From NCBI RefSeq assembly GCF_024700885.2, contig NZ_CP117016.1: a stretch of DNA of 64,000 nt; one strand, written 5' to 3'. This DNA comes from Escherichia coli (GTDB taxonomy: Bacteria > Pseudomonadota > Gammaproteobacteria > Enterobacterales > Enterobacteriaceae). Each line of letters begins with the position of its first letter. Positions within the stretch are counted from its first letter, which is position 1. A model generated the notes under the pieces. That model did no database searches, was not told where the DNA came from, and was given only the letters and a program-made list of their open reading frames with translations. Position numbers and translations under genes: made by a program. Below are positions 62,239 to 63,587 of the stretch, one piece after another.

Positions 62239-62760
62239 ATGAAACATTCATTTGAAGTAAAACTTGCCGCTGTAAATCATTACCTGGCTGGTCATGCAGG
62301 CATCATTTCTACGGCAAAACTCTTTCAACTTTCTCACACCAGCCTCTCACACTGGATTAATCTTTTTCTTCTTCACGGTCCTCGGGCACTGGATTGCAGA
62401 CACAAGCGTAGCTATTCTCCTGAAGATAAACTTTGCGTGGTTCTTTATGCTCTCGGGCATTCTGAGTCTCTACCCCGGGTAGCTGCCCGGTTTAATATTC
62501 CCAGCCACAACACGGTTAAAAACTGGATAAAAGGCTACCGCAAATCTGGTAATGAGGCCTTTATCAGGCGCAGGAAGGAGAAAAGCATGACCCGTTCTGA
62601 TGATACCCATGAAAACGAGGCAAACATGACGCCGGAAGAGATGAAGAATGAGCTGCGTTATCTTCGCGCAGAAAATGCATATCTGAAAGCCATGCAGGAG
62701 CATCTCCTGGAAAAAAAGCGCCAGGAGCTGGAGAAAAAACGAAAGTCATCCGGAGCCTGA
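62239..62760 (+). CDS. IS3-family transposase OrfA (HTH DNA-binding, leucine-zipper C-terminus)
   Basis: ORF 62230..62760; ATG at 62239 preceded by SD gaagg; the motif LAAVNHY resembles IS150-group OrfA. Confidence 0.85.
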   Translation: MKHSFEVKLAAVNHYLAGHAGIISTAKLFQLSHTSLSHWINLFLLHGPRALDCRHKRSYSPEDKLCVVLYALGHSESLPRVAARFNIPSHNTVKNWIKGYRKSGNEAFIRRRKEKSMTRSDDTHENEANMTPEEMKNELRYLRAENAYLKAMQEHLLEKKRQELEKKRKSSGA

Positions 62761-63587
62761 GGTGCGGACACTGCCAGCCTGACCTGTTAAAGGCTGCAGG
62801 GCTGGCCAGAAGCACGCTGTACTACCAGCTGTCACTGCAGAAGGCTAAGGACAAGTATGCTGATGTGAAACAGCTCATAGCCTCCATCTTCCATGAACAC
62901 CGGGGATGTTATGGGTACCGGCGGATCCATTGTGAGCTTCAGAAAAGAGGTCTTAAGTTCAGTGGCAAAACGGTGCGAAAACTGATGCAACAGCTCGGCC
63001 TGAAGTCTCCTGTGCGCCTGAAGAAATACCGGTCTTACCGGGGAAATATGGGACTCACTGCAGAAAATATCCTTCAGCGGCAGTTCAAAGCGGAAGCTCC
63101 CTGTGAGAAATGGGTGACAGATATCACCGAATTCAGGGCTGGCGGACAAAAACTGTACCTGTCCCCGATACTTGATTTGTTTAACGGGGAAATCGTGGCG
63201 TGGGAAACGGCCTGCAGGCCTACAGAGGAGCTGGTGAAGCGCATGTTAAATAAGGGGCTGGAAAGCCTTGCTGAAGGGGAGAAACCGCTGCTCCACAGTG
63301 ATCAAGGATGGCATTACCGGATAAAAAGTTATCAGTCCGCCCTGGCGGACAGAGGGTTAGTGCAGAGCATGTCGCGCAAGGGCAACTGCCTTGATAATGC
63401 GGTAATGGAGAACTTCTTTGGTCACCTGAAAGAAGAAATGTACTATCGCCGGGACTACAGAAATGTAGAAGAGCTGGAAAATGCCGTTAACGAATACATA
63501 ACTTACTGGAATCAAAAAAGAATAAAACTCAGTCTTGGGGGACTCAGTCCGGTAGAATACCGGACTGAGCATCAAAAAGCCGGTTAA
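62715..63587 (+). CDS. IS3-family transposase OrfB (DDE integrase core); probably expressed as an OrfAB fusion by -1 frameshifting
   Basis: Frame open from 62715 to 63587; ORF track begins at the GTG at 62865; DDE residues in WVTDITEF, HSDQGWHY and NAVMENFFGHLK; slippery heptamer A_AAA_AAG at 62712..62718. Confidence 0.85.
   Translation, partial: KAPGAGEKTKVIRSLRCGHCQPDLLKAAGLARSTLYYQLSLQKAKDKYADVKQLIASIFHEHRGCYGYRRIHCELQKRGLKFSGKTVRKLMQQLGLKSPVRLKKYRSYRGNMGLTAENILQRQFKAEAPCEKWVTDITEFRAGGQKLYLSPILDLFNGEIVAWETACRPTEELVKRMLNKGLESLAEGEKPLLHSDQGWHYRIKSYQSALADRGLVQSMSRKGNCLDNAVMENFFGHLKEEMYYRRDYRNVEELENAVNEYITYWNQKRIKLSLGGLSPVEYRTEHQKAG

What the first reader, a model, noticed from the sequence alone, without database searches (positions are those of the whole stretch)
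62705..62870. Programmed -1 ribosomal frameshift site linking IS orfA and orfB
The slippery heptamer A_AAA_AAG lies in the orfA frame at 62712..62718, about 14 codons before the orfA stop. The orfB frame (-1 relative to orfA) is open from 62715 through the DDE domain, so an OrfAB fusion transposase is expected, as in IS150 and IS911. The intact frameshift window and intact DDE residues suggest the element is potentially active.
Basis: partly seen in the sequence, partly recalled or inferred. Interest (0 to 1): 0.35.

Follow-up and report, generated by a model that had tools for sequence, protein, structure and literature searches.

The report
IS1397 transposase programmed -1 frameshift site
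This is the already catalogued ribosomal frameshift signal of the E. coli insertion sequence IS1397, which fuses its two overlapping genes into one transposase; it is real but ordinary.

Summary
A_AAA_AAG lies at 62712-62718 in the orfA phase (Leu-Glu-Lys-Lys), 13 sense codons before the orfA stop (62758-62760). The -1 (orfB) frame is open from 62652 to 63587. The element (62188-63619, 1432 bp) is IS1397, an IS3-family, IS150-group insertion sequence. It sits in the loop of a REP palindromic unit between smrB and a yfcO-like fimbrial gene, with a 4-bp GTCA duplication. It is 100% identical to copies that RefSeq annotates as "IS1397 family transposase, programmed frameshift". My predicted 449-aa fusion is an existing NCBI protein. 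Sharma et al. 2014 (NAR 42:7210, Tables S4, S6, S8) already list this site. They report an upstream SD-like GGAG, a 38-nt hairpin after a 3-nt spacer, and a 449-aa product, calling the frameshift "safely inferred", so I found no direct demonstration of it. All seven divergent clade relatives keep GGAAAAAAAGCGCC at the same position. In the wider IS150 group, 57 of 60 two-ORF relatives have an in-phase A_AAA_AAR. One nuance: the IS1397 clade's heptamer lies 9 codons downstream of the IS150-type "YLKK" site, and the IS150-type long stem is absent. Covariation does not support the hairpin. Verdict: already known, low interest.

The parts
62188..63619 (+). IS1397, complete copy (1432 bp)
   Evidence: 100% identity over 1432 bp to copies annotated as 'IS3-like element IS1397 family transposase' in many E. 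coli genomes. Ends are TG...CA.
62188..62212 (+). Left terminal inverted repeat (IRL), TGAACTGCACCCCAAATGTTGGACA
   Evidence: Inverted repeat I1. Unique in the window.
63595..63619 (+). Right terminal inverted repeat (IRR), TGTCCAGGTTTTGGGGTTCAGTTCA
   Evidence: Inverted repeat I1.
62184..62187 (.). Left copy of the 4-bp target-site duplication GTCA, which is the loop of the REP palindromic unit 62170-62187
   Evidence: The empty site in E. coli E300010 reads GCCTGATAAGACGC-GTCA-GCGTCGCATCAGGC with GTCA once.
63620..63623 (.). Right copy of the target-site duplication GTCA, followed by the other REP half at 63624-63637
62239..62760 (+). orfA (173 aa plus stop), an HTH DNA-binding protein
   Evidence: Translation. 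Pfam HTH_28 and HTH_Tnp_1. 27% identical to IS150 InsJ.
62652..63587 (+). orfB reading frame (-1 relative to orfA), open stop-to-stop. First ATG/GTG/TTG is the GTG at 62865.
   Evidence: 52% identical to IS150 InsK. Pfam HTH_21, rve and rve_2.
62712..62718 (+). Slippery heptamer A_AAA_AAG. The OrfAB CDS is join(62239..62718, 62718..63587), 449 aa.
   Evidence: Invariant in 7 clade relatives.
62697..62700 (+). [quoted passage not shown]
   Evidence: Within the 6-17 nt rule of Sharma et al. 2014, who score SD = 1.00 for this cluster. Present in 7 of 8 clade sequences. It also lies in a local hairpin, CAGGAG-CAU-CUCCUG, 62695-62709.
62722..62759 (+). Predicted downstream hairpin, 38 nt, after a 3-nt spacer (CGC 62719-62721). 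Stems are CAGG/CCUG and CUGGA/UCCGG with an AG/AG internal loop. It contains the orfA stop codon.
   Evidence: -12.4 kcal/mol, z = -2.6 against mononucleotide shuffles. Same size, spacer and first stem as Table S8 of Sharma et al. 2014. No covariation support.
62734..62739 (+). Second A-run (GAG AAA AAA CGA). It is not an X_XXZ_ZZN heptamer in phase, only an A_AAA tetramer, so at most a minor secondary slip site.
   Evidence: Conserved in most clade relatives, but both reading frames are coding here.
63120..63410 (+). DDE catalytic triad codons: D295 (63120-63122), D355 (63300-63302), E391 (63408-63410), plus K398 (63429-63431)
   Evidence: Pfam rve positions 2-102 of 102.

Best explanation
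The window holds a complete copy of IS1397 (IS3 family, IS150 group). Most ribosomes translating orfA stop at UGA 62758 and make the 173-aa HTH protein OrfA. When AAA and AAG (62713-62718) occupy the P and A sites, a fraction of ribosomes slip one base back on A_AAA_AAG. E. coli has a single tRNA-Lys (anticodon UUU) that re-pairs well with AAA. These ribosomes continue in the orfB frame and make a 449-aa OrfAB fusion (HTH + HTH_21 + DDE/rve), which is the transposase. Two elements probably raise the slip frequency: the SD-like GGAG 12 nt upstream, which would pair with 16S rRNA, and the 38-nt hairpin that starts 4 nt downstream. The frameshift frequency would then set the transposase level and so the transposition rate. 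Shown here: the sequence anatomy, its conservation, and its identity with annotated and published IS1397. Inferred: that slippage occurs, how efficient it is, and what the SD-like motif and the hairpin contribute.
For: The heptamer is in phase and the -1 frame is open. PGAP annotates the identical element with a two-piece CDS marked 'programmed frameshift'. The exact 449-aa fusion is in NCBI as an IS1397 family transposase. It scores 385 bits against NF033516 (cut-off 160) in one stretch, residues 62-442, across the junction. No ATG/GTG/TTG exists in the orfB frame before 62865, so the region 62718-62864 can only be translated by frameshifting. GGAAAAAAAGCGCC is invariant in 7 relatives with only 53-59% OrfA identity. 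57 of 60 IS150-group relatives carry an in-phase A_AAA_AAR in the overlap. Sharma et al. 2014 list cluster A_AAA_AAG_5 = IS1397: SD in 100% of sequences, hairpin in 100%, hairpin 38 nt, spacer 3 nt, frameshift product 449 aa, marked [true] as 'safely inferred'. In E. coli reporters, A_AAA_AAG gave 0.29% frameshifting alone, 4.3% with the IS911 stimulator and 39% with the IS3 stimulator. The general IS3-family mechanism is reviewed in PMC5009743.
Against: None of the readable sources directly demonstrates frameshifting for IS1397; the three primary IS1397 papers are not held. The hairpin has only modest thermodynamic support: z = -2.2 for 82 nt, z = -2.6 for 38 nt, and rank 20 of 161 among sliding windows. 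It has no covariation support (covariation term +1.06). Natural IS1397 variants carry changes that break single pairs, such as CAGG to CTGG. The 3-nt spacer is shorter than the 6 nt listed for the other IS3-family clusters in Table S8. The SD-like GGAG also encodes Gln-Glu and is predicted to sit in a small hairpin, so its conservation may be due to the protein.
Confidence: 0.88

Rival explanations
1. The fusion arises by transcriptional slippage. RNA polymerase adds one A on the A7 run (62711-62717), and the resulting mRNA encodes OrfAB in a single frame.
For: A run of 7 A is present. Some IS elements use transcriptional realignment.
Against: Productive bacterial slippage is described for runs of about 9 A or T. 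Here the run is 7 and ends in G in every clade member, which is the A_AAA_AAG form typical of ribosomal slippage. The heptamer phase is conserved, which transcriptional slippage would not require. Sharma et al. class it as -1 PRF.
Confidence: 0.05
2. OrfB is made on its own by initiation at GTG 62865 (240 aa: HTH_21 + DDE) and is the working enzyme. The heptamer is incidental.
For: GTG 62865 is the first start codon in the orfB frame, and a TAAGGA lies about 13 nt upstream. Clade relatives have a GTG overlapping the orfA stop (TAGTG), from which gene callers start orfB. From general knowledge, IS150 and IS911 also make a separate OrfB.
Against: IS1397 has lost the coupled GTG (ATC instead). 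The -1 frame between 62652 and 62865 is open, and its peptide GKKAPGxGEK...LRxxH..DLL.A.GLA.ST.YY is conserved across relatives. That is unexpected for untranslated sequence. In the IS3 family the fusion carries the transposase activity.
Confidence: 0.04
3. Slippage occurs mainly or additionally at the second A-run (A_AAA tetramer, 62736-62739), giving a fusion with 7 more OrfA residues.
For: The run GAGAAAAAR is conserved in 6 of 7 relatives, and the -1 frame is open there too. Z_ZZN tetramers can shift.
Against: It is not an X_XXZ_ZZN heptamer in phase. It lies inside the loop of the predicted hairpin, so it has no downstream stimulator. L087 has lost it (GAGACAAAAC) while keeping the first heptamer. 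Its conservation is explained by dual coding.
Confidence: 0.03

Closest known systems
IS1397 (IS3 family, IS150 group; Bachellier, Clement, Hofnung and colleagues; frameshift cluster A_AAA_AAG_5 of Sharma et al. 2014)
   Same: It is the same element. 1432 bp, 100% identical to copies RefSeq annotates as IS1397. Inserted in the loop of a REP palindromic unit, as the literature describes. Heptamer, SD-like motif, 38-nt hairpin, 3-nt spacer, 160 aa up to the motif and a 449-aa product all match the published table.
   Different: Nothing of substance. This copy sits at the smrB/yfcO-like intergenic BIME, a site occupied in only 25 of 5426 complete E. coli genomes. Table S6 gives 190 aa for the full frame-0 product against 173 aa here; I could not explain this.
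IS150 (E. coli K-12 insJ/insK; Vogele et al. 1991)
   Same: Same group. OrfB is 52% identical and OrfA 27% identical. Same A_AAA_AAG heptamer, same -1 fusion logic, and a downstream stem-loop.
   Different: The IS150 heptamer lies at the conserved 'YLKK' position, followed by a 6-nt spacer and a 10-11-bp long-range stem, GCCTTAGCTC...GAGCTAAGGC. That stem shows compensatory changes among relatives. IS1397 has the non-slippery CTG AAA GCC at that position. Its heptamer is 27 nt further downstream ('LEKK'), the spacer is 3 nt and the hairpin is a different 38-nt one. IS150 scores no SD in Table S8; IS1397 scores SD = 1.00.
IS911 (IS3 group)
   Same: A_AAA_AAG heptamer combined with both an upstream SD-like stimulator and a downstream structure.
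   Different: The IS911 structure is a three-way junction after a 6-nt spacer. It belongs to a different IS3 subgroup. From general knowledge, OrfB of IS911 starts at an AUU codon.
E. coli dnaX -1 frameshift
   Same: A_AAA_AAG with an upstream SD-like element and a downstream stem-loop.
   Different: dnaX is a cellular gene, and its frameshift product is shorter (the gamma subunit) rather than a fusion to a second domain.

Membership tests
IS3 family insertion sequence | DDE transposase that matches the curated IS3 transposase model above its cut-off | tested here: met
   NF033516 scores 385 bits against a cut-off of 160, covering profile positions 1-369 of 369. Pfam rve, rve_2 and HTH_21 are present. 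D295, D355 and E391 have 35 residues between D and E, and K is at E+7.
IS3 family insertion sequence | Two partly overlapping ORFs, with orfB in the -1 frame relative to orfA | tested here: met
   orfA is 62239-62760. The orfB frame is 62652-63587, in the -1 phase.
IS3 family insertion sequence | Terminal inverted repeats ending 5'-TG...CA-3', a short (3-4 bp) target duplication, and a length of about 1.2-1.55 kb | tested here: met
   IRL and IRR are 25 nt each with TG...CA ends. The 4-bp GTCA duplication is shown against an empty site. The length is 1432 bp.
IS1397 (element identity) | Near-identical nucleotide sequence to IS1397 | tested here: met
   100% identity over 1432 bp to copies RefSeq names as IS1397 family. 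The exact OrfAB protein is named IS1397 family transposase. The ISfinder reference entry itself could not be consulted.
IS1397 (element identity) | Insertion into the central loop of REP palindromic units (BIMEs) | tested here: met
   The empty site is GCCTGATAAGACGC-GTCA-GCGTCGCATCAGGC, and the IS lies between the duplicated GTCA copies. A second REP at 62100-62126 makes this a BIME-like cluster. The specificity is described in the papers cited.
Programmed -1 ribosomal frameshift signal (criteria of Sharma et al. 2014) | X_XXZ_ZZN heptamer in the 0-frame phase within the overlap | tested here: met
   A_AAA_AAG at 62712-62718.
Programmed -1 ribosomal frameshift signal (criteria of Sharma et al. 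2014) | [quoted passage not shown] | tested here: met
   GGAG at 62697-62700, with 12 nt between.
Programmed -1 ribosomal frameshift signal (criteria of Sharma et al. 2014) | Hairpin of 17-140 nt that starts 4-10 nt after the motif, opens with a G-C or C-G pair plus at least 3 further pairs, and has an unfolding energy of at least 7.6 kcal/mol | tested here: met
   The hairpin at 62722-62759 has its first base at +4, a CAGG/CCUG first stem, and an energy of -12.4 kcal/mol.
Programmed -1 ribosomal frameshift signal (criteria of Sharma et al. 2014) | Structure supported by compensatory base changes | tested here: inconclusive
   There are only 7-8 divergent sequences. RNAalifold gives a covariation term of +1.06 and prefers a different long-range pairing. 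Relatives fold into hairpins in different registers.
Programmed -1 ribosomal frameshift signal (criteria of Sharma et al. 2014) | Frameshift product demonstrated experimentally | not testable with these tools
   Sharma et al. call it 'safely inferred'. The primary IS1397 papers are not held.
IS150-type frameshift cassette | Heptamer at the conserved 'YLKK' codons, then a 6-nt spacer and the long-range stem GCCTTAGTTCA...TGAACTAAGGC | tested here: not met
   IS1397 and its clade have YLKA (CTG AAA GCC) at that position, and the stem arms are not complementary. 55 of 57 wider relatives use YLKK.

The most novel reading that the evidence does not exclude
The IS1397 clade appears to have moved its recoding signal. 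The ancestral IS150-type site (A_AAA_AAG at 'YLKK', 6-nt spacer, long-range 10-11-bp stem) was lost. A new A_AAA_AAG arose 27 nt downstream, inside what had been the loop of the old structure. It is paired with an SD-like GGAG and a compact 38-nt hairpin after a 3-nt spacer. If both states are functional, this is a natural example of turnover of a frameshift cassette within one IS group. I did not find this relocation described in the sources I could read.
Probability: 0.55. Interest if true: 0.3.

Novelty: already known. Interest (0 to 1): 0.1.

Why it matters
It matters little beyond correct annotation. The two ORFs should be annotated as one programmed-frameshift transposase gene of IS1397, not as two genes or a pseudogene. 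The copy looks intact and so could be mobile, which bears on REP/BIME polymorphism at the smrB/yfcO-like intergenic region among E. coli strains. The one point of wider interest is the displaced heptamer and replaced stimulator relative to IS150-type relatives. That could serve as a small natural case study of how recoding signals evolve.

Tried and rejected
(1) I tried to read the three primary IS1397 papers (PMC94167, PMC169884, PMC95333). None is held, so I could not establish whether OrfAB was ever shown experimentally.

(2) A distant blastn of the IS against plasmids found no intermediate relatives, only IS1397 itself and short matches of 65-80% identity.

That was too few sequences for a covariation test.

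(4) RNAalifold on 7 clade sequences gave no covariation support and a different long-range pairing. Folding each relative separately gave hairpins in varying registers. I therefore do not claim a conserved structure.

(5) A search for a pseudoknot, requiring at least 5 bp between the hairpin loop and the flanking 80 nt, found nothing.

(6) I rejected the second A-run (62734-62739) as the main shift site because of its phase and because L087 has lost it.

(7) I rejected the idea that the heptamer is a chance occurrence, because of its conservation.

Full report
**Observation**

The sequence at 62700-62760 reads gcatctcctg-gAAAAAAAG-cgccaggagctggagaaaaaacgaaagtcatccggagccTGA. orfA starts at ATG 62239 and gives 173 aa ending ...AYLKAMQEHLLEKKRQELEKKRKSSGA*. 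In that frame the codons are CTG GAA AAA AAG CGC. The heptamer at 62712-62718 is therefore in the A_AAA_AAG phase, 13 sense codons before the stop at 62758-62760.

The -1 frame is open from 62652 (after TGA 62649-62651) to TAA 63585-63587. The frame has no ATG, GTG or TTG before GTG 62865.

The heptamer by itself is common: 21 copies in the window against 13.5 expected. Its significance comes from its phase, its position in the overlap, and its conservation.

**What the element is**

Inverted repeats of 25 nt (62188-62212 and 63595-63619, ends TG...CA) bound a 1432-bp element. It is 100% identical to copies in many complete E. coli genomes that RefSeq labels 'IS3-like element IS1397 family transposase'. 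Of 5426 genomes, 1707 carry a copy covering at least 80% of the element.

Its ends map to 62239 and 63587.

The 449-aa protein I predicted from a slip at the heptamer (...LLEKK-APGAGEK...) exists verbatim as WP_260834445.1. It matches NCBIfam NF033516 (IS3 family transposase) at 385 bits against a cut-off of 160. The match is one stretch, residues 62-442, spanning the junction. Pfam finds HTH_28 and HTH_Tnp_1 in OrfA, and HTH_21, rve and rve_2 in the OrfB part. The catalytic residues D295, D355 and E391, with K398, are intact.

**Insertion site**

Only 25 genomes have the IS at this locus. An empty site in strain E300010 reads GCCTGATAAGACGC-GTCA-GCGTCGCATCAGGC. This is a REP palindromic unit whose 4-nt loop, GTCA, is duplicated on either side of the IS in the window at 62184-62187 and 63620-63623. 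This is the published target specificity of IS1397 (papers cited).

Two genomes, AST240 and JNE070796, have 100%-identical copies at two different loci. That fits recent transposition.

**Prior knowledge of the frameshift**

Sharma et al. 2014 (PMC4066793) list cluster A_AAA_AAG_5 as 'Fam IS3/grpIS150/IS1397, orfA'.
- The cluster holds 59 genes.
- An SD-like element is present in 100% of sequences and a hairpin in 100%.
- The hairpin is 38 nt, the spacer 3 nt and the first stem 4 bp.
- The frame-0 product up to the motif is 160 aa and the frameshift product is 449 aa.
- The cluster is flagged [true] because -1 PRF 'can be safely inferred'.

I reproduced these features independently.
- The hairpin at 62722-62759 is CAGG-AG-CUGGA...UCCGG-AG-CCUG. 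It folds at -12.4 kcal/mol and follows the spacer CGC.

The same paper measured A_AAA_AAG in E. coli at 0.29% without a stimulator, 4.3% with the IS911 stimulator and 39% with the IS3 pseudoknot. The review PMC5009743 summarises the general logic. OrfA is a DNA-binding regulator, the OrfAB fusion is the transposase, and frameshift level sets transposition level.

**Comparative evidence gathered here**

A genome scan gave 80 loci of relatives at 38-58% identity in the best aligned segment, plus one partial E. coli IS1397 copy. Sixty of them have two ORFs in the 0/-1 arrangement. Of these, 57 carry an in-phase A_AAA_AAG (49) or A_AAA_AAA (8) in the overlap, and 55 of those are at the peptide context 'YLKK'.

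These relatives, and IS150 of K-12 (L002, heptamer at 1163), share a stem, GCCTTAGTTCA...TGAACTAAGGC, that starts 6 nt after the heptamer. It shows compensatory variants such as GCCTTAACGCG/CGCGTTAAGGC and GCCTTGATCC/GGGTTAAGGC.

IS1397 differs. At the homologous codons it has TAT CTG AAA GCC (YLKA), which is not slippery. Its heptamer lies 27 nt further downstream (LEKK).

The closest OrfA relatives I could find (53-59% identity; L083, L085-L089, L093) share this arrangement. All keep GGAAAAAAAGCGCC at the same alignment columns, and the -1-frame peptide GKKAPGxGEK is conserved. The displaced site is therefore a trait of this clade and not an accident of this copy.

Those relatives end orfA with TAG overlapping a GTG (TAGTG), from which gene callers start orfB. 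IS1397 has TCATC there, so orfA runs 4 codons longer and the coupled start is absent.

**Structure**

Support for the hairpin as a stimulator is only moderate.
- Thermodynamics: z = -2.2 for 62719-62800, z = -2.6 for the 38-mer, and rank 20 of 161 sliding windows.
- Covariation: RNAalifold on seven clade sequences gave a positive (unfavourable) covariation term and a different long-range pairing.
- Register: individual relatives fold into hairpins in different registers.
- Variants: some natural IS1397 variants break single pairs.
- Pseudoknot: no loop-to-flank complementarity of at least 5 bp was found.

Both reading frames are coding here, so sequence conservation alone cannot separate RNA constraints from protein constraints.

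**Rivals**

- Transcriptional slippage on A7 is unlikely. Productive slippage is described for runs of about 9, and the conserved phase and terminal G point to ribosomal slippage.
- Independent OrfB from GTG 62865 may occur. It cannot explain the conserved open -1 frame upstream of that codon.
- The second A-run (62734-62739) is at best a weak tetramer site, and one relative has lost it.

**Verdict**

However, this is the known, annotated and published frameshift site of IS1397, so the novelty is 'already known' and the interest is low. The only modestly new point is that the IS1397 clade uses a relocated heptamer with a different stimulator set from the IS150-type relatives. Direct experimental proof of frameshifting in IS1397 was not found in the sources available to me.

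Noticed in passing
window 62170-62187 and 63620-63637; L115:100-200: IS1397 sits exactly in the 4-nt loop (GTCA) of a REP palindromic unit, with GTCA duplicated on both sides. An empty site exists in E. coli E300010. A second REP at 62100-62126 makes the smrB/yfcO-like spacer a BIME-like cluster. Only 25 of 5426 complete E. coli genomes have the IS at this locus.
   Followed up: yes
window 62679-62718 compared with L002:1150-1260 and L007-L082: The IS1397 clade's heptamer is 27 nt (9 codons) downstream of the 'YLKK' site used by IS150 and by 55 of 57 wider relatives. The IS150-type long-range stem (GCCTTAGTTCA...TGAACTAAGGC, with compensatory variants) is absent in IS1397.
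   Followed up: yes
window 62185-62198 and 62229-62242: A 14-nt inverted repeat (93% complementary, 30 nt apart) pairs the outer end of IRL plus flank (TCATGAACTGCACC) with GGTGCAGTTTATGA, which contains the orfA ATG at 62239. In read-through transcripts from smrB it could hide the orfA start, a device known from other IS elements. Not tested.
   Followed up: no
window 63543-63569: A perfect 12-bp palindrome with a 3-nt loop (CTCAGTCCGGTA-GAA-TACCGGACTGAG) lies inside the 3' end of orfB, about 16 nt before its stop codon. Its function is unknown.
   Followed up: no
L083:620-640, L085-L089 (orfA stop region); window 62743-62760: Clade relatives end orfA with TAG overlapping a GTG (TAGTG), from which orfB is called, so a coupled start is possible. 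IS1397 has TCATC there, so it lacks that start and orfA is 4 codons longer, ending inside the 3' arm of the hairpin.
   Followed up: partly
L003 (1459-2880), L006 (1453-2850), L009 (1453-2886): Pseudomonas asuensis relatives show one long open frame covering both OrfA-like and OrfB-like parts. These may be naturally fused transposase genes without a frameshift. Not examined further.
   Followed up: no
window 62695-62709: The SD-like AGGAG upstream of the heptamer lies in a small predicted hairpin, CAGGAG-CAU-CUCCUG (-8 kcal/mol). That hairpin would compete with pairing to 16S rRNA, and it is not conserved in clade relatives.
   Followed up: partly
PMC4066793 Table S6 compared with window 62239-62760: The published table gives 190 aa for the full frame-0 product of the IS1397 cluster. 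orfA here is 173 aa from the ATG, or 176 aa from GTG 62230. The 160 aa to the motif and the 449-aa fusion agree. The discrepancy is unexplained.
   Followed up: no
window 13164-13206 (- strand): Rfam nuoG RNA (RF01748, 50.3 bits against a gathering score of 33) was the only Rfam hit in the window. No tRNA genes were found. This is ordinary E. coli chromosomal context.
   Followed up: no
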